64,000 nucleotides of DNA from a virus. Below, piece by piece: positions 39,815 to 52,790 of the stretch. Position 1 is the first letter of the stretch. Every line of letters starts with the position of its first letter. The position numbers and the translations under genes were made by a program. The stretch covers positions 1 through 64,000 of IMG/VR virus record IMGVR_UViG_3300008108_000057; one strand, 5' to 3'. The notes beneath the pieces are model-generated. The model was given only the letters and a program-made list of their open reading frames with translations. It did not search any database and was not told the DNA's origin.

Positions 39815-42800
39815 ATGGCCCTAAATTTTAATGTTGACCCATATTATGATGATTTTGATCCATCAAAGAATTTTCATAGAATACTTTTCAAACCAGGATA
39901 TGCTGTACAAGCAAGAGAACTAACACAATCTCAAACTATTCTGCAAAATCAAATTAGTAATTTTGCTGATGCCATTTTTAGTCAAAATACTCCAGTCTCT
40001 GGTGGAAGAGTTTCACTTAACTTTGCAGCTATAGGAAATATTGGAGCTTATTACGTAAAGCTACAAACTCAATTTTCTGGTGTTGAAATTGACGTTAATA
40101 ATTTTCTAAACAAAGATATTCAAGATGTAAATGGAATTGTTCAAGCAAGAGTTATTGCTGTAGCAGAAGGAACTTTAATTGATCCTCCTACTCTTGTTGT
40201 AACCTACTATACTGGAGCTAAATTTAAGGACGCATCTACAATTATTTGTACCGATGGATCAAATTTTTCTGCCACTACTATAGGCACAAATACATCGGCT
40301 GAAACATGCACAGGTGCATCTTCAACAGTATCAATTTCAGAGGGTATTTTTTACATCATTAATGGTTATAACACTTCAAATGTTCAGAACCCAGATGGAA
40401 CATATAACAGATATTCAATTGGTAATTTTGTAAGTGTTTTACCTCAGACAATTATTCTTGACAAGTATGCTAGTAATCCAAGTGGTCGTGTAGGACTTTC
40501 AATTACAGAAACAATTGTAGATTATATTGATGATACTTCACTTTTAGATCCTGCTGTAGGAGCATCAAATTATCAAGCACCTGGTGCAGACAGATATAAA
40601 ATTTCATTGGAATTAGTTGTATTACCTCTCACACCAGGAAATGATGATCAATTTATTGAACTTGTCAGACTTGAAAATGGTAAAATTCTAAAACAAGTTG
40701 ACGGAACAGTATATTCAGTTATTAATGATTATATTTCAAAACGCACATACGAAACAGATGGTGATTTCATCGTTAATGAGTTTAGTTTTACACCAACTGC
40801 AAATACTGTAAATCCGGATCTTTATGATTTAAAAATTAGTAAAGGATTAGCATATATTCGTGGGTACAGAGTAGAAAATCAGTCAGACATAACATTCTCT
40901 ACCCCTAGAGCAAGATCAAATAACATTATTAATAACAATCAAGTTTATGTTGATTATGGTTCTTATGTGTTAGCAAATAATGTTTCTGGTACCTTTGATA
41001 TTACTACAATGCCAAAGATTGATTTGCATTGTGTAGCAAATTCAAATATTGTTTCAACAAACTCAGTAACATATTCTGCTACTTTAATTGGTTCTGCATT
41101 CTTAAGAAATATTGATTATGAAAGTAGTGTATCAGATTCAGATACATCGTCATATTCATACAAAATGTATATTACTGATGTAAGTGCAAATACTTTAAGT
41201 GGTACAGCATTAGCAGCAGGGTCATCCCCAACAACAATTCAATTTAATGACACTAATGGAAAATTCTCTGCTGTAGCAAACGCATATTTTGGTGTTAAAA
41301 TTTCCGCATTAACTTCTGGTTATACTGATGTTAGAGAAATTGTATCGTATGATGGAACAACAAAAACAGCAACGGTCGATTCACCATTCACATTAAATCC
41401 TACAAATTCTACTCAATTTAATTTACTGTTTTCAACAACAGATATTGAGTCTTTGATTAATGTGCCAAATGGTCCTGCAACACCTACCGTTAGAACTGCA
41501 TCGGCTAACATACCGAATGCAGGAAAATTTAACGGATTGTTTACTGGTGATACAATATTATATAATCCTACTCAAGCGGAACTGCTGTTCACTGTTGGTT
41601 ATCCATACGTATCAAATATTTCTGATAGTAGCTATATTTCACAAAAAGTTTTCAGATCAAAATCTTTCACCAGCTCAGGTGGAAATTTTGTAATGACTCT
41701 ATCGCTTCCTGTTAATACTGCAAATATCAAATTTATTGGAACAGGAACATTATCGTCAGATGCCATTAAACAAAACTTTACTGTAGTTAATAAGGCAAAT
41801 AATAGACAAATTCTAGATTTTGTATCTGCTGGAAATACTGTTGTTATTTCTTCCGACCAAAAAACAGCAACATTCACAACACCTGTTTATGGTACAACAA
41901 CAGTAGATGTTATTGCTGGAGTTTCTGTAGGAAATGCTGATAACTCAACGTTAGTCTTAAAGGCAAAAAATCTTGTAGTAGGAAATACTCAGATAGTGAG
42001 TTATGCTGGTCCTACAGCGATTGTTGATGCTAATACCTATCTTGATCTGACAAATGGACAAATTTATATTAAAGAATCTGCGGTAGGAAAAACAACATCA
42101 TTATATGTTTCTGATGTTAAGAAAATTAGAAAAATTATTAGTACAAAATCGTCAGTAACAGTACCAACAACATCAATGTTGTCTGATTCTTCATATGATG
42201 TAACTAGTTTGTTCTTGCTAGACAATGGACAAAGAGATAACTATTATGATTTTTCTGCTGTTAGATTGAAACCTGGAGCTTCTAGACCACTAGGAAATCT
42301 ATTGGTTATTTTTGATTACTATGCACATACTGGAGGAGATGGATACTTTGATGTAAATTCTTATCTAACCCCAATATCTTCTTCACCAGATCAATATAGA
42401 GAAATTGGTCAATATACAAGTAAAGCGGGTATCAACTACAGACTTACTGACAGTTTAGATTTTAGACCAGTTAGACAGGCACCATCTGGTAGTGTTTCTT
42501 CGGTTCCATTTACTTTGGAATATACTGGGAATCCATCTGCACCAGACGATAGTGGTATCTTAATTCCTCAAAACCTAAGTTACTTTACACATGATTATGC
42601 ATACTACTTAGGAAGAAAAGATAAACTTGTCATAACAAAAGATAATACAATTGATATTATTCTAGGAACACCTTCTGTTAATCCTACATTCCCGGCTGAA
42701 CCTGACGGAGCACTATTGCTTGCAAAGATGACTCTTGATCCATATACAGGTTATATTCCAGGTGAAGATTCGACAACACAACAGACAAATTATAGTATAG

Positions 42801-45800
42801 AAAGAGTACAACATAAAAATTGGATCAAACGAGATATTACTGATTTACAGGATCGTGTTAACAATCTCGAATACTATACTGCATTAAGTTTGCTCGAACA
42901 AAATGCACAGTCACTACAAATTCCAGATTCAAATGGTTTGAACAGATTTAAGAATGGTATTCTTGTAGATGACTTTTCTTCATATGCAACAGCAGATACA
43001 CGACTATCTGAAGGATTTAATGCTAAAATTGATATTGCGAAGAAACAATTGACACCTAGAAGTATTGTAGATAATTTAGCACTAAAAAATCCTATAGTTC
43101 TAAATTCATTGGGAACAATAAAACAGACAAATTCGTTTTATGTTCATACTATTGCCGGTAGTACAAATATATACACTCTACCCTACACAACCAAATTTAT
43201 TACTGGACAAACACTAGCAAGTAGCGTAGTATCTGTAAATCCATTTGGTGTTATCAGAAATGAAGGATCTATGCAATTATGTCCTCCTATGGATAATTGG
43301 GTAGATAATCAACAAGCACCTGATATTCTAGTAGTGGATCCAAGACTACAATTATTTCAAGCTAGTGGAACAAATCTCATTCAAAATGCTGGTAACTGGC
43401 AAACAATTCCAGGAACAACAAGCCAAACTCTTGCTGGTACTTCCACAGCCGTAACCACTACTGGAAACATACAAACAACTACGACAACACAAACATTTAA
43501 TGTATTTGGTAATCAAATACAAAATGTTATTAATTCGGGATATTCTGCAATTAATTCAACTATTGGATTAAACAATGGTTATATAACAAATATTGGGATA
43601 CTTGGATACATTCGTCCACAAAGAGTCCGCTTTAGAGCATCAGGATTACTAGCTAATGCTAAATTAAAAGCATTCTTTGATGGAGTAGATGTATCTAATG
43701 ACATTGTAAGTCCTAACATTATTAGAGTAGATAATGTATCTGGAGTTTTCAGAGAAGATGATATTGTAGGTTTCGAGATAGCTAATGTGTTTTATCCTGT
43801 AGGAAGAGTGTTGGGAGTAACACAGGTACCAGGAGCATCAACATCTTATAATTTGGCTATATTTGATATTGATGGTGCACCAGAATACCTAGCGGCAGCT
43901 ACGCTAAGAAATGCTAGATTCGATGAAAATGGAGTTTATGTTTCAGGATCTACTACCGCTAGTGGACAACTATCATCTGGAGTTTCACCACTAAACGTGT
44001 CTGGAACAATTAGAGGTCCTGCAGGATCACTTATTACAAATGCAAATACAAATGCGAACTTAATTTTTAGATCCACAAAGACTGATGCTACTTGGGGCGA
44101 CTTCTTAAAAATAAATGGTATGTGGGCAACTGGTAATAATATTACCGCATATCGTAGTTGGGATGCAACATATACTTTCACAGCAAACACTGGTGGTAAC
44201 TATGTTATAGCTGCTAGTTCTTGGAGAGACACTACAGCACCATTTGTGAATAGAACAGCAACAATTACTATTGACGGAACTGTTCAAATAAGTGCTACTG
44301 AATTGTATAATGCGACTCCAACGGGAACTGTCAGTAAGACAATCTCGTTGACACCTGGAAATCACACAATAAGAATAACAGCAAATGGTTCTGGTACACC
44401 ACTTGCCACAGTAGCAACTCAATCTGGCCTTGCATGTATTATAACAGAACCAGTAGGAACACCAGGAAGAAACATTGTATTCAATGCTTTATATCCACCT
44501 TCAGTAGATTATCCAAGCGGAACTCAAATAATCTTGCCTCTAGGAGGAGCATACTTTGATGGATTTACAAGAGTTTCTTTGGCCGCAGGAGCAAGTGAAC
44601 AAGATGATTTTTATATTGGTTCAACTATAACCATAACTACAAAATATCTGTACACTTATCTGTCTGATGGTAGCACACTACAAATTCCTGTTCCATTTAC
44701 ATCTGGAGGCGCAGGAGATGGAGGAATTACTGTAGGAAGCAGAACTTATGTTGGACCTGATGGAAGAACTGGATATGTTCTACAAAGCATAGAAACATAC
44801 ACCGCAAATATCATAGATTATGATGGTCAATTAAGAATTGCGACTTTAGATACACCAGTCAATCTATCATTAGGAGATAATCAATTATTTGGAAACATTA
44901 ATTCCACATACAGTATTAAAGGTAACCTTGTTAGTTTAGAAGAAGCAATTATAGATGGCACTACAGTACCAACTTTCTCTAGTGATGCTCAAGGTAATGT
45001 AACTGGTTTATTTGAGATTCGTCCAAATAGATTCAGAACTGGTGAAAGACTCTTTAGACTTGATAACAGAACTATATCTAATGATCCTCTAACTGCTACA
45101 TGTTATGCAGAAGCAACATTTACTGCCTCTGGATTATCATCTTCTAGACAAAAATTAGAATTTGCTCCGTCAGTTGATGCTGGTGGTAAAACTTTTATAC
45201 AAACCAATCAGAGAAGTGGTGCTTTCATAGGTACTGCGACACAAACAACTGTCACTCAGCAAGTAATAGCAGAACAAGGATTTAGAGGTTGTTGTTTCAT
45301 TGCTGGAACAAAGATTACCATGGCTGATGGTTCTATCAAAAATATTGAAGATGTTCAAATCGGTGATGAGTTGATTGGTAAAGATGGTTCTGTTAATACA
45401 GTGCTTGAGTATGTCAGACCTGTATTGGGAGAAAGAACACTAATCTCTCTAAATGATAGCACTCCTTTCATAACCAATGATCATCCAGTCTACATGAAAG
45501 ATGGCACATGGAAATCTTTTGATCCAGTTGCGACAAAATTAAAGTATAAAAAACTTTCTGACTGGAACATAGGTAAGTTGGAAGTTGGTGATGTCATTGA
45601 AACTGTAGACGGTGTAGGATTTAAAATTGAAACTATGTCTGAACATTCTGACAGAGATGATCTTCAAGTTTATAACTTCTCATTAAATGGAAACCACACC
45701 TATATTGCTAATAATCTAGTTGTTCACAACAAGTGTTTTGTTGCTGGTACTGAAGTTCTTATGAAGGACAACACTTGGAAGAATATAGAAGATGTAGAGT

Positions 45801-48800
45801 TGAATGATGTATTAATTGGTGAAAGTGGATCAGAAAACAGAGTAAGAGAATTCCATAGACCAACTCTAGGACTTATGGATCATATATTACCTCATAAACT
45901 GAGATTAGCATCAATTAACAATTCTGATTTTTCTGTATCTGAAGATCACATGATTAAAACAACTTCAGGTTGGAGAACACCGACAGTAGAGATGTGTAAG
46001 ATTCTACATGCCAAGACTTTAGAGATTGAGAATATTGACATTACTCAATTACAACTTGGCGACGATATCATATGCTCCGATGGCTCGCTACTAAGAGTTG
46101 AAAGCATTGAATTTAAAGAAGATGCTCCAGAAATACAATTGTATAACTTTAGATTGTACGGAAACAAAACATACCATGTACGTATGAAAGGTAGTGATAA
46201 GTTTATCTTAGTGCATAACAAGTGCTTTACTTCAGGCACAGAAGTCCTCATGAAGGACAACACTTGGAAGAACATTGAAGATGTTGAAATAAATGATGTA
46301 TTAATTGGTGAAAACGGATCTGAAAATAGAGTAAGAGAATTCCACAGACCAACTCTGGGACTCAATGATCACATCTTACCACATAAACTAAGACTGGCAT
46401 CAATTAATGAATCAAACTTCTCTGTCTCAGAAGATCATATGATCAAAACAACCTCTGGTTGGAGAACACCTACAGTAGAAATGTGTAAGATTCTTCATGC
46501 TAAGACTCTAAAAGGAGACAACATTGATATTTCTCAACTGCAAATTGGTGATGAAATTATATGTTCTGATGGCTCACTACTAAAAGTAGAAACTATTGAA
46601 TTTAAAGAAGATGTTCCAGAACTGCAACTCTACAATTTCAAACTATATGGAAACAAAACATACCATGTACGTATGAAAGGTGCAGAGAAGTTCATGCTAG
46701 TGCATAACAAGTGCTTTACTTCAGGCACAGAAGTATTGATGCATGATGGCTCTTGGAAAAATATTGAAGAAGTCGAACTTGGAGATATACTACTTGGTGA
46801 AGATGGTGCTGAAAATATGGTTAAAGAGTTTCATAGACCTGTACTAGGACTCAATGATCACATCTTACCACATAATCTAAGACTGGCATCTATTAATAAC
46901 TCAGAGTTTTCCGTGTCTGAAGATCACATGATCAAAACAACTTCAGGTTGGAGAACACCTACAGTAGAAATGTGTAAGATTCTACACGCTGAAACCTTGA
47001 AGAATGAAAATATAGACATTACTCAATTACAGCTTGGAGATGAAATCATATGCTCTGATGGCTCATTGTTAACAGTAGACAGCATTGAATTCAAAGAAGA
47101 TGCTCCGGATCTACAACTTTATAACTTCAAACTACATGGAAACAAAACATATCATGTACGTTTGAAAGGTAGTGACAAGTTTATCTTAGTACACAATAAA
47201 GATCCTCTTGCTCAAACGTTCGCTGTTCCTAAAGACAATTATCCAAATGGAGCATTCTTACGTTCAGTTAAGTTGTTCTTCCAATCAAAACCAACTGGAC
47301 CTAATGCTCCTGATGTTGAAGTGTATGTTGTTGGAACGACAAATGGTTACCCTAATGGAAAAAATTTAGATTATTCTGTAGCTAGAGTGAAGGCTCAAGA
47401 TATTAAAATTTCAAATAATCCACATTGGCTTGATCCAGAAACAGCAACGGAATTCGTATTTCCTGCTCCTGTTTACATTCAAAATAGTATTTTTTATGCC
47501 TTTGTTGTATTTTCGCATAGTCCTGACTACACAGTATACTTTGGACAACAAAACGCTGTTGCCGTGCCTTCTACAACAAAAGCATTGCCAACCGATCCTA
47601 ATCCTGCTAACCCAGGGAAAATTGGAGCAACTCCATATGTTGGTGGATTATTCGAATCCCAAAACGCTGTCACCTGGCAAGTTGATCAAACTAAACAAAT
47701 GATGTTTGTAATTGATCAATGTGTATTCACCACATCAGACTCAAAAACTTTGGAATTCTCTTTACCTTCTGGTTTACCATTTAGAGCAATTGATGTTCTC
47801 AACGATATTGTTCATACAACCAGTCCGGCTAGCATCAATAATACTTATGGTAACTTTGCACAAAAGGTACCAGTTATGCGTTCTGATGCAGTAAACGTCA
47901 CTACAACAGATTTTATTCCAACAGGAGCAGTAATTAAGTACACCGCAAGTGCAACATTAAATGATGGTGCAAATACTGTTGTTGGACAGTTCCCTGTGTT
48001 CCCAGGAAGACTTGGATCACCAACATATGATGATGTTGATTATGATGATGGAAGAGGACCAAGAGCGTTGCTTAGAGATGCAAATAACTCATTTAGACTT
48101 TTTGCAACCATGGCAACAGCAGATTCTAACACATCTCCAATTATCGCAGATGATGGTGTAAGTCTGTATAACATTAGATATGTGATTAACAATCTTGAAC
48201 TGTCTAACAGCATGATTGAAATTGTAGATGGAGGAACAGGGTATCATCCAGCAAACGTAGTTGCTACTGTAAGTCCACCTGATATTGGTAGTGATGCTGC
48301 AACATGTGGAGTTGTTCTAACTTCAAATGTAATTACCAATGTGTATTTGACAACCTTTGGTTCTGGGTATGTTAAAACTCCTACAATCACAATTACTGGA
48401 GCGAATACAACTCCTGCTACCGTTCTTATTCGTGGAGAGACTTCATCTGGTGGAGGTAATTTAACAACCGCAAGATACTTGACAAAAGTAGTAAAATTAA
48501 CTCCAGACAATGAATCTGGTGATTTAAGAGTATTCTATACAGCATACAAACCTCTAGGAACAGAAATCTATGTGTATTATAAGATTCTGAATTCGGACGA
48601 TACGGATGTAATTGATGATAAAGAATGGCAATTAATGACTCAGACAAGTACAATATCATATTCACTATCAAAACAAAATCTAATTGAATATGAATGTGCT
48701 CCTGGTGTCAATAATTTAGCAGATAACTTTATTTCATATACAAAAGGAACCGAAACTTACAATTCATTTAATCAGTTCCAAATCAAGTTTGTTATGACAA

Positions 48801-48874
48801 CAGAAGATACAACAAATATACCTTTTGTGACTGACATACGAGCATTAGCTTTACCATCTGGAACAGGATTGTAA
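39815..48874 (+). CDS. Giant VrlC/DUF4815-like virion protein (3019 aa) containing four tandem Hint domains
   Basis: PYYDDFD..KNFHRILFKPG.AVQARELTQ.Q; LEYYT.LSLLE; RFKNG..VD.F; DPLAQTF; IRALAL end. Confidence 0.9.
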   Translation: MALNFNVDPYYDDFDPSKNFHRILFKPGYAVQARELTQSQTILQNQISNFADAIFSQNTPVSGGRVSLNFAAIGNIGAYYVKLQTQFSGVEIDVNNFLNKDIQDVNGIVQARVIAVAEGTLIDPPTLVVTYYTGAKFKDASTIICTDGSNFSATTIGTNTSAETCTGASSTVSISEGIFYIINGYNTSNVQNPDGTYNRYSIGNFVSVLPQTIILDKYASNPSGRVGLSITETIVDYIDDTSLLDPAVGASNYQAPGADRYKISLELVVLPLTPGNDDQFIELVRLENGKILKQVDGTVYSVINDYISKRTYETDGDFIVNEFSFTPTANTVNPDLYDLKISKGLAYIRGYRVENQSDITFSTPRARSNNIINNNQVYVDYGSYVLANNVSGTFDITTMPKIDLHCVANSNIVSTNSVTYSATLIGSAFLRNIDYESSVSDSDTSSYSYKMYITDVSANTLSGTALAAGSSPTTIQFNDTNGKFSAVANAYFGVKISALTSGYTDVREIVSYDGTTKTATVDSPFTLNPTNSTQFNLLFSTTDIESLINVPNGPATPTVRTASANIPNAGKFNGLFTGDTILYNPTQAELLFTVGYPYVSNISDSSYISQKVFRSKSFTSSGGNFVMTLSLPVNTANIKFIGTGTLSSDAIKQNFTVVNKANNRQILDFVSAGNTVVISSDQKTATFTTPVYGTTTVDVIAGVSVGNADNSTLVLKAKNLVVGNTQIVSYAGPTAIVDANTYLDLTNGQIYIKESAVGKTTSLYVSDVKKIRKIISTKSSVTVPTTSMLSDSSYDVTSLFLLDNGQRDNYYDFSAVRLKPGASRPLGNLLVIFDYYAHTGGDGYFDVNSYLTPISSSPDQYREIGQYTSKAGINYRLTDSLDFRPVRQAPSGSVSSVPFTLEYTGNPSAPDDSGILIPQNLSYFTHDYAYYLGRKDKLVITKDNTIDIILGTPSVNPTFPAEPDGALLLAKMTLDPYTGYIPGEDSTTQQTNYSIERVQHKNWIKRDITDLQDRVNNLEYYTALSLLEQNAQSLQIPDSNGLNRFKNGILVDDFSSYATADTRLSEGFNAKIDIAKKQLTPRSIVDNLALKNPIVLNSLGTIKQTNSFYVHTIAGSTNIYTLPYTTKFITGQTLASSVVSVNPFGVIRNEGSMQLCPPMDNWVDNQQAPDILVVDPRLQLFQASGTNLIQNAGNWQTIPGTTSQTLAGTSTAVTTTGNIQTTTTTQTFNVFGNQIQNVINSGYSAINSTIGLNNGYITNIGILGYIRPQRVRFRASGLLANAKLKAFFDGVDVSNDIVSPNIIRVDNVSGVFREDDIVGFEIANVFYPVGRVLGVTQVPGASTSYNLAIFDIDGAPEYLAAATLRNARFDENGVYVSGSTTASGQLSSGVSPLNVSGTIRGPAGSLITNANTNANLIFRSTKTDATWGDFLKINGMWATGNNITAYRSWDATYTFTANTGGNYVIAASSWRDTTAPFVNRTATITIDGTVQISATELYNATPTGTVSKTISLTPGNHTIRITANGSGTPLATVATQSGLACIITEPVGTPGRNIVFNALYPPSVDYPSGTQIILPLGGAYFDGFTRVSLAAGASEQDDFYIGSTITITTKYLYTYLSDGSTLQIPVPFTSGGAGDGGITVGSRTYVGPDGRTGYVLQSIETYTANIIDYDGQLRIATLDTPVNLSLGDNQLFGNINSTYSIKGNLVSLEEAIIDGTTVPTFSSDAQGNVTGLFEIRPNRFRTGERLFRLDNRTISNDPLTATCYAEATFTASGLSSSRQKLEFAPSVDAGGKTFIQTNQRSGAFIGTATQTTVTQQVIAEQGFRGCCFIAGTKITMADGSIKNIEDVQIGDELIGKDGSVNTVLEYVRPVLGERTLISLNDSTPFITNDHPVYMKDGTWKSFDPVATKLKYKKLSDWNIGKLEVGDVIETVDGVGFKIETMSEHSDRDDLQVYNFSLNGNHTYIANNLVVHNKCFVAGTEVLMKDNTWKNIEDVELNDVLIGESGSENRVREFHRPTLGLMDHILPHKLRLASINNSDFSVSEDHMIKTTSGWRTPTVEMCKILHAKTLEIENIDITQLQLGDDIICSDGSLLRVESIEFKEDAPEIQLYNFRLYGNKTYHVRMKGSDKFILVHNKCFTSGTEVLMKDNTWKNIEDVEINDVLIGENGSENRVREFHRPTLGLNDHILPHKLRLASINESNFSVSEDHMIKTTSGWRTPTVEMCKILHAKTLKGDNIDISQLQIGDEIICSDGSLLKVETIEFKEDVPELQLYNFKLYGNKTYHVRMKGAEKFMLVHNKCFTSGTEVLMHDGSWKNIEEVELGDILLGEDGAENMVKEFHRPVLGLNDHILPHNLRLASINNSEFSVSEDHMIKTTSGWRTPTVEMCKILHAETLKNENIDITQLQLGDEIICSDGSLLTVDSIEFKEDAPDLQLYNFKLHGNKTYHVRLKGSDKFILVHNKDPLAQTFAVPKDNYPNGAFLRSVKLFFQSKPTGPNAPDVEVYVVGTTNGYPNGKNLDYSVARVKAQDIKISNNPHWLDPETATEFVFPAPVYIQNSIFYAFVVFSHSPDYTVYFGQQNAVAVPSTTKALPTDPNPANPGKIGATPYVGGLFESQNAVTWQVDQTKQMMFVIDQCVFTTSDSKTLEFSLPSGLPFRAIDVLNDIVHTTSPASINNTYGNFAQKVPVMRSDAVNVTTTDFIPTGAVIKYTASATLNDGANTVVGQFPVFPGRLGSPTYDDVDYDDGRGPRALLRDANNSFRLFATMATADSNTSPIIADDGVSLYNIRYVINNLELSNSMIEIVDGGTGYHPANVVATVSPPDIGSDAATCGVVLTSNVITNVYLTTFGSGYVKTPTITITGANTTPATVLIRGETSSGGGNLTTARYLTKVVKLTPDNESGDLRVFYTAYKPLGTEIYVYYKILNSDDTDVIDDKEWQLMTQTSTISYSLSKQNLIEYECAPGVNNLADNFISYTKGTETYNSFNQFQIKFVMTTEDTTNIPFVTDIRALALPSGTGL
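45293..45730 (+). other. Hint (intein/BIL-like) domain 1, 146 aa
   Basis: CFIAGTKI...IEDVQIGD; block B TNDH; YNF...VVHN; +1 Lys. Confidence 0.93.
45734..46219 (+). other. Hint domain 2, 162 aa
   Basis: CFVAGTEV...SEDH...YNF...LVHN; +1 Lys. Confidence 0.93.
46223..46708 (+). other. Hint domain 3, 162 aa
   Basis: CFTSGTEV...SEDH...LVHN; +1 Lys; 489-bp period. Confidence 0.93.
46712..47197 (+). other. Hint domain 4, 162 aa
   Basis: CFTSGTEV...SEDH...LVHN followed by K-DPLAQTF. Confidence 0.93.
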
Positions 48875-51774: not shown

Positions 51775-52790
51775 CAACGAAAGTAACAAGTTTAGTATTA
51801 GCTAATACTGCCGTTACACCTGGAACTTATGGTAGTACAACACAAATTCCTACATTTGCTGTAGACGGTCAAGGTAGAATTACTTCAGCAGCAAATGCTG
51901 CTATATTATTTGGTACTATGGCAACTCAAAATTCAAGTAATGTCAATATTACTGGTGGTTCGGTAACTGGTATTACTGATCTTGCTGTTGCGGATGGTGG
52001 TACTGGAGCATCTGACGCTGCAACAGCTAGAACTAATTTGGGTCTAGGTACTGTTGCGGTTGAAAATACTGTTCCTGTAGCCAAAGGTGGTACTGGTGCT
52101 ACTGATGCTGGAACAGCTAGAACTAATTTGGGTCTAGGTAGCGTTGCAGTTGAGAACACTGTTCCTGTAGCCAAAGGTGGTACAGGAGCTACTGATGCTG
52201 GAGGTGCGAGAAGCAACTTAGGCTTGGGTACTATGAGTACTCAAAATAGTACAGGAGTAAGTATCACAGGAGGTGCAATAGCATCACTTAGTACTTTTTC
52301 AACCAGTGGTTTCTCTGATGCAAACTTGTATGGATCGGTTTCGATATATGGTGGAACAACAGGAGAATATGAAACATTTGCGTCAACTACAAGTATGTTT
52401 TCTAGTAGTCCAGCGGCAGATGTGGATTTAGGTTCATACATACTCTCTAGTTCCTTTTCTTATACAGTGTTGAGAATCAAAACTCAGGGAATATATATTC
52501 CAAATGCTTTTAATCCGGTCAATCCACTCCCATCAAGACTTTATAAAGACTTTTCTGTTGGAATATGGTATAATCAAAGTACAGGTGTTTATACAGTAGA
52601 TTTTGGTACAAACCTAGTTGCTTTTAATAGCGATGGCACCAACTTTGCTGCGGGCGCCTGGAATTCTGGTAGAGCCGCTATAGTAGGTGCTGGAACAACT
52701 TCTCTTGTGTATAGATTTACAAATAGAGCATCACCAGCAGCAGATTCGTCAACTTATTTCTATACTTTATTCGAGATAACAAAATGGTAA
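51771..52790 (+). CDS. Fibre-like protein with GGTGA..ARTNLGL repeats
   Basis: 30-aa (90-bp) repeats; C-terminal domain paralogous to 53080..53805. Confidence 0.75.
   Translation: MTTKVTSLVLANTAVTPGTYGSTTQIPTFAVDGQGRITSAANAAILFGTMATQNSSNVNITGGSVTGITDLAVADGGTGASDAATARTNLGLGTVAVENTVPVAKGGTGATDAGTARTNLGLGSVAVENTVPVAKGGTGATDAGGARSNLGLGTMSTQNSTGVSITGGAIASLSTFSTSGFSDANLYGSVSIYGGTTGEYETFASTTSMFSSSPAADVDLGSYILSSSFSYTVLRIKTQGIYIPNAFNPVNPLPSRLYKDFSVGIWYNQSTGVYTVDFGTNLVAFNSDGTNFAAGAWNSGRAAIVGAGTTSLVYRFTNRASPAADSSTYFYTLFEITKW
51996..52230 (+). repeat. 90-bp in-frame tandem repeat (about 2.6 copies)
   Basis: GGTGGTAC at 51996, 52086, 52176. Confidence 0.85.

What the first reader, a model, noticed from the sequence alone, without database searches (positions are those of the whole stretch)
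45293..47200. Head-to-tail array of four Hint (intein-like) domains, each followed by one Lys, inside a giant virion protein
Seen: residues ~1827-2461 of the 3019-aa protein read GFRGC|CFIAGT...HN-K-CFVAGT...HN-K-CFTSGT...HN-K-CFTSGT...HN-K-DPLAQTF. These are four complete mini-Hint domains (146, 162, 162, 162 aa). Each keeps Cys1, the block-B His (TNDH/SEDH) and the terminal His-Asn; none has a homing endonuclease, and only a single Lys separates them. The array sits just before the conserved DPLAQ(T/S)F motif. Established: canonical inteins need Cys/Ser/Thr at +1. A-type BIL domains lack it and can cleave or splice by aminolysis, but normally occur singly or separated by other domains. Inference: this may be a poly-Hint processing cassette that (a) releases the ~558-aa C-terminal domain, (b) splices stepwise leaving GFRGC-K(n)-DPLAQ, or (c) uses the invariant Lys as acceptor for the Cys1 thioester to form isopeptide cross-links in the baseplate. 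Four of four +1 Lys, including after the divergent copy 1, suggests Lys is part of the functional unit. I do not know of a described zero-extein poly-Hint array in a phage structural protein.
Basis: partly seen in the sequence, partly recalled or inferred. Interest (0 to 1): 0.92.

Follow-up and report, generated by a model that had tools for sequence, protein, structure and literature searches.

The report
Stacked self-cutting domains in phage baseplate
A freshwater phage carries four intein-like self-cutting domains, stacked head to tail and each followed by one lysine, in a flexible linker of its large baseplate protein; such stacks turn out to be a widespread, mobile, apparently undescribed family that may splice proteins through a basic residue rather than the usual Cys/Ser/Thr.

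Summary
The array is real: four intact Hint domains (146/162/162/162 aa), each followed by Lys, under strong purifying selection (dN/dS 0.04-0.11) and not an assembly artefact. They resemble type A bacterial intein-like (BIL) domains. The host is a VrlC/DUF4815 baseplate protein, probably a homolog of the phage 812 tripod. The same site holds 0-4 Hints in relatives, and arrays of up to 7 occur in other phage and bacterial proteins. The window's cassette arrived horizontally (Hints about 80% identical to those in hosts only 30-35% identical) and then expanded locally. The +1 residue is selected (Lys 349, Arg 50 of 458 units; many bacterial proteins end Hint-Lys-stop), so it belongs to the unit. 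It is not invariant Lys, which weakens a general isopeptide cross-link model. Relatives naturally split into two genes at this site, so a cut is tolerated. Most likely each unit excises itself in turn, giving ligated and cleaved chains, and the array is a tolerated mobile element. The chemistry is untested; Lys side-chain (isopeptide) splicing remains a real rival. I found no description of such arrays; the scan earlier noted single terminal Hints on phage fibre proteins in another genome.

The parts
39815..48874 (+). Host gene: 3019-aa VrlC/DUF4815 baseplate protein (phrog_358), probable homolog of the phage 812 tripod protein; follows gp6-, gp7- and gp8-like wedge genes and precedes tail-fibre genes
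45263..45292 (+). About 10 extra N-extein residues ending Gly-Cys (residue -1 = Cys1826); the linker is 9-13 aa longer than in the nearest Hint-free alleles
45293..45730 (+). Hint 1, 146-aa type, usually first in arrays; 78-84% identical to first Hints of distant DUF4815 hosts; keeps the block-F His
45731..45733 (+). +1 Lys of Hint 1 (AAG), also residue -1 of Hint 2
45734..46219 (+). Hint 2, 162-aa type; internal copy, dN/dS 0.07 against its ortholog in L018
46220..46222 (+). +1 Lys of Hint 2 (AAG)
46223..46708 (+). Hint 3, 162-aa type; no counterpart in the three-copy allele; AlphaFold model pLDDT 97.5, best match BIL structures
46709..46711 (+). +1 Lys of Hint 3 (AAG)
46712..47197 (+). Hint 4, 162-aa type, last unit
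47198..47200 (+). +1 Lys of Hint 4 (AAA); the nearest Hint-free alleles have Arg at this position
47201..48874 (+). C-terminal 557-aa part starting at the DPLAQ motif; beta-sandwich region matching the 812 DUF4815 chain from about residue 792; a separate gene in some relatives

Best explanation
The array is a mobile cassette of type A BIL-like Hint domains from a large clade whose unit is Cys...His-Asn plus a basic +1 residue. SHOWN by sequence: a two-unit cassette (146-aa type plus 162-aa type) entered this lineage horizontally at the equivalent DPLAQ linker of the baseplate protein, and the 162-aa unit then multiplied locally. Copy number varies, every copy keeps its catalytic residues under purifying selection, and the site is a variable linker where the chain can be broken. 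INFERRED chemistry: each Hint forms a Cys1 thioester with the residue before it and cyclises its terminal Asn. The basic +1 residue, held near the active site by its charge, accepts the upstream chain through its freed alpha-amine. The N-terminal part is thus handed from unit to unit, leaving a short Lys run before DPLAQ; any failed step gives a two-chain protein that still assembles. INFERRED genetics: with no endonuclease, spread and expansion go by homologous recombination, through the conserved host flanks and between Hint copies. The array is tolerated rather than required.
For: All 66 internal copies in tight arrays keep Cys1, block-B His and His-Asn. dN/dS is 0.04-0.11 for the window's Hints against 0.17-0.31 for host flanks, 0.07 for an orthologous internal pair, and mostly 0.04-0.18 among internal copies elsewhere. 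A simple cut-out at the two outer ends would leave internal copies free to decay. +1 is K or R in 155 of 156 units in DUF4815 hosts, and K and R mix within single arrays; R has 9 parsimony changes, so charge rather than an epsilon-amine is what is kept. The eight Hint-free alleles closest to Hint-bearing ones have K/R before DP, resembling the spliced product (only two clades). Window Hints are 76-84% identical to Hints in hosts 30-35% identical, while hosts 63-67% identical have none; copies 2-4 form one clade with the sister phage's copies, SH-aLRT 96 (host tree). The site is low-confidence and variable (residues 180-229 before DP, pLDDT 26-37), and genes are naturally split there. Type A BILs are reported to cleave mainly and to splice in some cases (PMC7664689, PMC5874633).
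Against: No activity was measured. Known type A BILs mostly cleave, so four serial ligations would give a low yield unless this clade is far more efficient. A single terminal Lys before the stop (14 of 27 short tails in cellular genomes) is hard to explain by alpha-amine attack after release, since a free lysine could diffuse away; this favours side-chain attack. Conservation of internal copies could partly reflect selection for folding or positional turnover, and decayed copies could fall below my detection threshold. A third Hint-bearing clade has nearest empty alleles with Trp/Tyr before DP. Copies 2-4 lack the block-F His, although that column is variable in the family.
Confidence: 0.45

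Rival explanations
1. Lysine side-chain splicing. The +1 Lys epsilon-amine plays the part of the Cys/Ser/Thr nucleophile of class 1 inteins: it attacks the Cys1 thioester before Asn cyclisation, giving a stable isopeptide. The array would leave an epsilon-linked oligolysine junction, and terminal Hint-Lys-stop domains would cap a protein with Lys. Arg variants would be cleavage-only forms tolerated where a break is harmless.
For: +1 Lys is kept even with no C-extein: K in 82 of 87 cellular units, 14 ending in a single Lys. Several terminal Hints lacking +1 Lys have a Lys 2-4 residues later at the very end. Arg is concentrated in the split-tolerant DUF4815 hosts (38/156) and rare elsewhere (12/302; 1/87 in cells). 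The top fold match, Tetrahymena BIL2, is reported to form Lys isopeptides (PMC8616854).
Against: In DUF4815 hosts the only tolerated substitute is Arg (155/156 K or R), whose guanidinium is a poor acyl acceptor (general chemistry), so positive charge alone is under selection. K and R units alternate in one array. The paper excerpt does not say that the BIL2 acceptor Lys is at +1.
Confidence: 0.25
2. Cleavage-only maturation cassette. The Hints cut the baseplate protein into an N-terminal part and the C-terminal leg/anchor part, mimicking the two-gene form; the basic +1 residue only helps catalyse scission, and extra copies are redundant.
For: Two-gene forms split exactly at this motif exist, some with Hint followed by an S74 chaperone or other terminal modules. 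BILs predominantly cleave. In phage 812 the leg domains move 88 A on contraction (PMC13433997), so this region is mobile.
Against: It does not explain why internal copies stay intact and under strong selection. More than 200 Hint-free relatives lack any such cutter, so the cut is not required.
Confidence: 0.2
3. The Cys1 thioester is captured in trans, cross-linking baseplate subunits or attaching the virion covalently to the host surface.
For: Precedent for trans acceptors in BIL2 and Hedgehog. Some related arrays end in a Hedgehog-like Hint plus helical tail.
Against: Presence is patchy, with most close relatives lacking any Hint. Copy number varies, Arg substitutes for Lys, and no Hedgehog-like terminal module is present in this protein.
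Confidence: 0.06
4. The domains are inactive passengers, or the array is an assembly artefact.
For: Block-F His is lost in copies 2-4. No single contig of the laid runs spans the array.
Against: Copies differ at about 20% of bases, mostly synonymously. All copies are present in independent runs. Catalytic residues are intact, and homologous arrays occur in many contigs.
Confidence: 0.04

Closest known systems
Type A bacterial intein-like (BIL) domains, e.g. Clostridium thermocellum BIL4 (PDB 2LWY; Pfam PT-HINT)
   Same: Hint fold, Cys1, block-B His, terminal His-Asn, no C/S/T at +1, no endonuclease, variable insertion region; best sequence hit (E 4.6e-15) and among the top fold hits (TM 0.65-0.75).
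   Different: Here +1 is a conserved basic residue, the units are stacked with one-residue linkers, and the host is a phage baseplate protein. None of this appears in the papers I could read.
Tetrahymena BUBL locus, BIL2 (PDB 6Y75, 6TMM)
   Same: Top fold match (E 2e-7, TM about 0.70); repeated BILs in one polyprotein; reported Lys isopeptide formation (PMC8616854).
   Different: BUBL alternates BILs with ubiquitin-like domains that are the cargo; here nothing lies between the Hints but one Lys.
Class 1 mini-inteins (e.g. phage gp41-1)
   Same: Fold and N-terminal catalytic residues; horizontal spread to the equivalent site of distant homologs.
   Different: No C/S/T at +1, block-F Asp replaced by Asn, insertion in a variable linker with extra flanking residues, tandem copies.
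Hedgehog Hog domain (Hint plus sterol-recognition region)
   Same: Hint-driven thioester; related arrays end in a Hint lacking His-Asn followed by a helical tail.
   Different: Absent from the window's protein; all four units here end in His-Asn.
VrlC / DUF4815 baseplate protein; phage 812 tripod (PDB 9EUF chain, 1152 aa)
   Same: Host protein family. The C-terminal part matches the 812 DUF4815 chain by profile (E 3.4e-17) and fold (E about 1e-9).
   Different: The host here is much longer and carries the array. No cultured phage has a close Hint of this clade (best 31% over full length). That the 9EUF DUF4815 chain is the tripod is my inference, from its size, copy number and the shared Cwp84-like fold.

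Membership tests
Type A BIL domain | Hint fold with Cys1 and block-B His | tested here: met
Type A BIL domain | C-terminal His-Asn | tested here: met
   all four copies
Type A BIL domain | No Cys/Ser/Thr at +1 | tested here: met
   Lys in all four; about 6% of clade members do have C/S/T
Type A BIL domain | No homing endonuclease | tested here: met
   146-162 aa units, no endonuclease hit
Type A BIL domain | Located in a hypervariable region of the host protein | tested here: met
   variable linker before DPLAQ, though the host family itself is conserved
Type A BIL domain | Nearest solved relatives are type A BILs rather than inteins | tested here: met
   2LWY, 6Y75 and 6TMM rank first by profile and by fold
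Type A BIL domain | Autocleavage and some splicing activity | not testable with these tools
   only purifying selection and intact catalytic residues
Class 1 intein | Cys/Ser/Thr at +1 | tested here: not met
   Lys
Class 1 intein | Precise insertion: excision restores the empty allele | tested here: not met
   the linker would stay 9-13 aa longer than the nearest empty alleles, although the basic residue before DP is shared
BUBL polyprotein | BILs alternate with ubiquitin-like domains | tested here: not met
   one Lys between units
BUBL polyprotein | Lys epsilon-isopeptide product | not testable with these tools
   indirect evidence both ways
Hedgehog Hog domain | Terminal Hint without His-Asn plus adduct-binding helices | tested here: not met
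   absent in the window; such a module ends related arrays
VrlC/DUF4815 baseplate protein (host) | DUF4815/phrog_358 match, baseplate gene context, similarity to the 812 chain | tested here: met

The most novel reading that the evidence does not exclude
This clade of Hints performs lysine-dependent protein splicing. The +1 Lys side chain replaces Cys/Ser/Thr as the branch nucleophile, so stacked units excise in series and leave a genetically encoded epsilon-linked oligolysine junction in a virion protein, and Hint-Lys-stop domains in many bacteria cap proteins with an isopeptide lysine. This would be a new splicing class and a self-stacking mobile protein element that spreads without an endonuclease.
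Probability: 0.25. Interest if true: 0.85.

Novelty: new variant of a known kind. Interest (0 to 1): 0.62.

Why it matters
Efficient protein splicing is thought to need Cys, Ser or Thr after the intein, and BIL domains that lack it are regarded mainly as cutters of unclear purpose. Here a large natural family keeps Lys/Arg at that position, stacks up to seven units with almost no spacer and keeps every internal unit active, which suggests efficient serial processing by another route. The array gives a small, directly testable substrate for how BILs ligate and whether they can use Lys. It also shows an endonuclease-free element moving between distant phage structural genes. A Lys/Arg-accepting splicing domain would be useful for protein ligation. 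For the phage itself the array is probably dispensable.

Tried and rejected
Assembly artefact: rejected. Invariant Lys: rejected, Arg is a recurrent substitute. A simple crossover chimera explaining the three-copy allele: not seen; its copies match window copies 2 and 4 along their length, so copy 3 was gained or lost as a unit. Another Hint elsewhere in the 163-kb genome as a local donor: none. A conserved acidic partner specific to K/R units: no clear column. K/R before DP as a strict target requirement: holds for two clades, not for a third, and the enrichment disappears at a looser identity cut-off. Cultured phage with this array: none. Literature: ten searches found no description of such arrays; the primary BIL paper I tried was not held, so prior description elsewhere is not excluded. 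No RNA holder was listed, and the one raw-read run had almost no coverage. A genome scan with the broad alignment failed for lack of a conserved stretch and was rerun with a narrower one. No complex prediction was run.
Full report
Observation. The window is the first 64 kb of a 163-kb, 98% complete virus record; runs holding it are freshwater or lake metagenomes and some labelled fungus metagenome. ORF 39815-48874 encodes 3019 aa. Four Hint domains of 146, 162, 162 and 162 aa run from 45293 to 47197, each starting with Cys, ending His-Asn and followed by one Lys; 557 aa follow. Pfam Hint-clan models hit every copy. Copies 2-4 differ at about 20% of bases, mostly third positions, and pieces of all four copies occur in three other runs, so the array is real. 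No long read was available.

Host protein. It matches DUF4815 and phrog_358 and lies after gp6-, gp7- and gp8-like wedge genes. Cultured homologs are annotated VrlC or adsorption-associated tail protein, and VrlC is a baseplate-located virion protein (PMC4621102). A profile of Hint-free relatives matches the 1152-aa DUF4815 chain of the phage 812 baseplate, with the DP motif near residue 792, and a predicted model matches the same chain and Cwp84. PMC13433997 describes a trimeric tripod protein whose leg domain resembles Cwp84 and moves 88 A on contraction. I infer that this chain is the tripod and that the array sits at or near the start of the leg beta-sandwich. In the model the 50 residues before DP have pLDDT 26-37; they vary in length and sequence among relatives. 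Low confidence there could also reflect folding that needs the trimer.

What the domains are. An AlphaFold model of copy 3 (pLDDT 97.5) matches best the BIL2 domain of Tetrahymena BUBL and C. thermocellum BIL4, ahead of true inteins; a profile search gives the same two first. They meet every sequence criterion of type A BILs and fail the +1 criterion of class 1 inteins. Copies 2-4 have Lys where copy 1 has the block-F His; that column is His in fewer than half of the family, so I do not read it as inactivation.

Distribution. Among DUF4815 proteins found through the Hint, 15 have one, 13 two, 8 three and 3 four units at this site, while 118 and 96 relatives found through the flank have none. 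The same Hint types occur in another phage protein from a tail-fibre region (six units plus a terminal Hint of a different type), in large Bacteroidetes proteins with short Lys-Gly-Ser linkers, and in many other proteins with up to seven units and linkers of 0-30 residues. Relatives occur in Alphaproteobacteria, CPR bacteria, Chloroflexi and others. No cultured phage has a close relative.

Origin of this array. Window Hint 1 is 78-84% and Hints 2-4 are 76-82% identical to Hints in hosts whose C-terminal domain is only 30-35% identical, whereas the nearest hosts (63-67%) have no Hint. Copies 2-4 form one clade with the two 162-aa copies of the sister phage (SH-aLRT 96). The simplest history is transfer of a two-unit cassette, like that of L019 or P0014, into the equivalent site, then local multiplication. 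The direction is inferred from the Hint-free neighbourhood of the window's host and was not tested with a rooted test. The sister allele matches copies 1, 2 and 4 and lacks copy 3. Recombination as the means of spread is inference from the absence of an endonuclease.

The +1 residue. With a profile that omits the +1 column, 458 distinct units give K 349, R 50, C 12, S 8 and few others. In DUF4815 hosts the count is K 117, R 38, C 1; in cellular genomes K 82 of 87, with 14 proteins ending in that single Lys. The sequences are related and the seeds came from this clade, so these are not independent counts. Arg shows 9 parsimony changes against about 40 for shuffled labels, and K and R occur in the same array in 22 proteins. 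So a basic +1 residue is selected and travels with the Hint, but Lys is not invariant. The eight empty alleles closest to Hint-bearing ones have K/R before DP, but they belong to two clades and a third clade has Trp/Tyr.

Is ligation needed, and does it happen? It is not needed: several phages split the gene exactly here, with a second gene starting 6-14 residues before the motif behind a ribosome-binding site, and others split it about 165-180 residues upstream. In the split forms the first gene ends in Hint(s) plus a short tail, an S74 chaperone or another terminal module. Yet every unit seems to have to work: 66 of 66 internal copies keep all four catalytic residues, and dN/dS is 0.04-0.11 in the window's Hints against 0.17-0.31 in the host flanks, including 0.07 for an internal orthologous pair (other internal copies). 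Cutting only at the outer ends would not require this, whereas serial hand-over of the N-terminal chain through each +1 residue would. Detection bias against decayed copies and selection for folding are caveats.

Mechanism. Shown: anatomy, selection, mobility, split tolerance and the basic +1 residue. Inferred: Cys1 thioester formation and Asn cyclisation in each unit (established Hint chemistry), acceptance of the upstream chain by the +1 residue, and a mixture of ligated and cleaved product. I give 0.45 to ligation through the freed alpha-amine with charge-assisted retention, because Arg substitutes freely. I give 0.25 to Lys side-chain isopeptide splicing, because Hint-Lys-stop proteins are common, Arg is enriched only in the split-tolerant host, and BIL2 is reported to make such bonds (PMC8616854). 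Cleavage only gets 0.2, since BILs mostly cleave (PMC7664689); trans cross-linking 0.06; inactive or artefact 0.04.

Novelty. The domain type is known. The conserved basic +1 residue, single-residue stacking and carriage in a phage baseplate protein were not found in ten literature searches; the primary BIL paper I tried was not held. An earlier scan note described single terminal Hints on phage fibre proteins in another genome, and the only sequence look-alikes with Hints were this same stretch. Verdict: real, a new variant of a known kind, probably dispensable for the phage but biochemically intriguing and easy to test; interest 0.62.

Noticed in passing
window:14967-15356 (+): Phage-encoded tmRNA with tag ANDERFALAA. 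From memory this tag is typical of Betaproteobacteria, a possible host hint.
   Followed up: no
window:4905-6311 (+): Gene for a phosphate-selective porin O/P family protein (Pfam PF07396, E 1e-44) in a phage genome.
   Followed up: no
P0001:1608-1828, P0008:2177-2397, L084:4436-5131, L026: Arrays often end in a different Hint-like domain without His-Asn, followed by a conserved helical tail, reminiscent of the Hedgehog Hog domain; only weak Pfam Hint hits. It may attach an unknown adduct.
   Followed up: partly
L065:4775, L069:4742, L094:4502, L084:5125, L096:4776; L001 and L100-L123: DUF4815 genes are naturally split at two linkers: at the DPLAQ motif and about 165-180 aa upstream; Hint arrays occur at both.
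   Followed up: yes
P0293, P0314, P0318: Arrays with zero-residue linkers in which Cys1 (or Ser1) of the next Hint is the +1 residue, which could splice canonically.
   Followed up: no
L188-L266: Many 300-500 aa proteins of Alphaproteobacteria, Chloroflexi and CPR bacteria end in Hint-Lys-stop; host proteins not identified.
   Followed up: partly
P0064-P0100: Large surface-like proteins (PF09479) ending in two Hints joined by a short Cys-rich linker, the last without His-Asn.
   Followed up: no
window:45290-45295: Residue -1 of first Hints in DUF4815 hosts is often Cys, giving adjacent Cys-Cys pairs; redox control of the first unit is conceivable.
   Followed up: no
L073:4001-4460: Hint interrupted by a frameshift in a DUF4815 gene; real or sequencing error not determined.
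   Followed up: no
window:58820-59508 and 51996-52202: 147-bp and 90-bp tandem repeats in tail-fibre genes.
   Followed up: no
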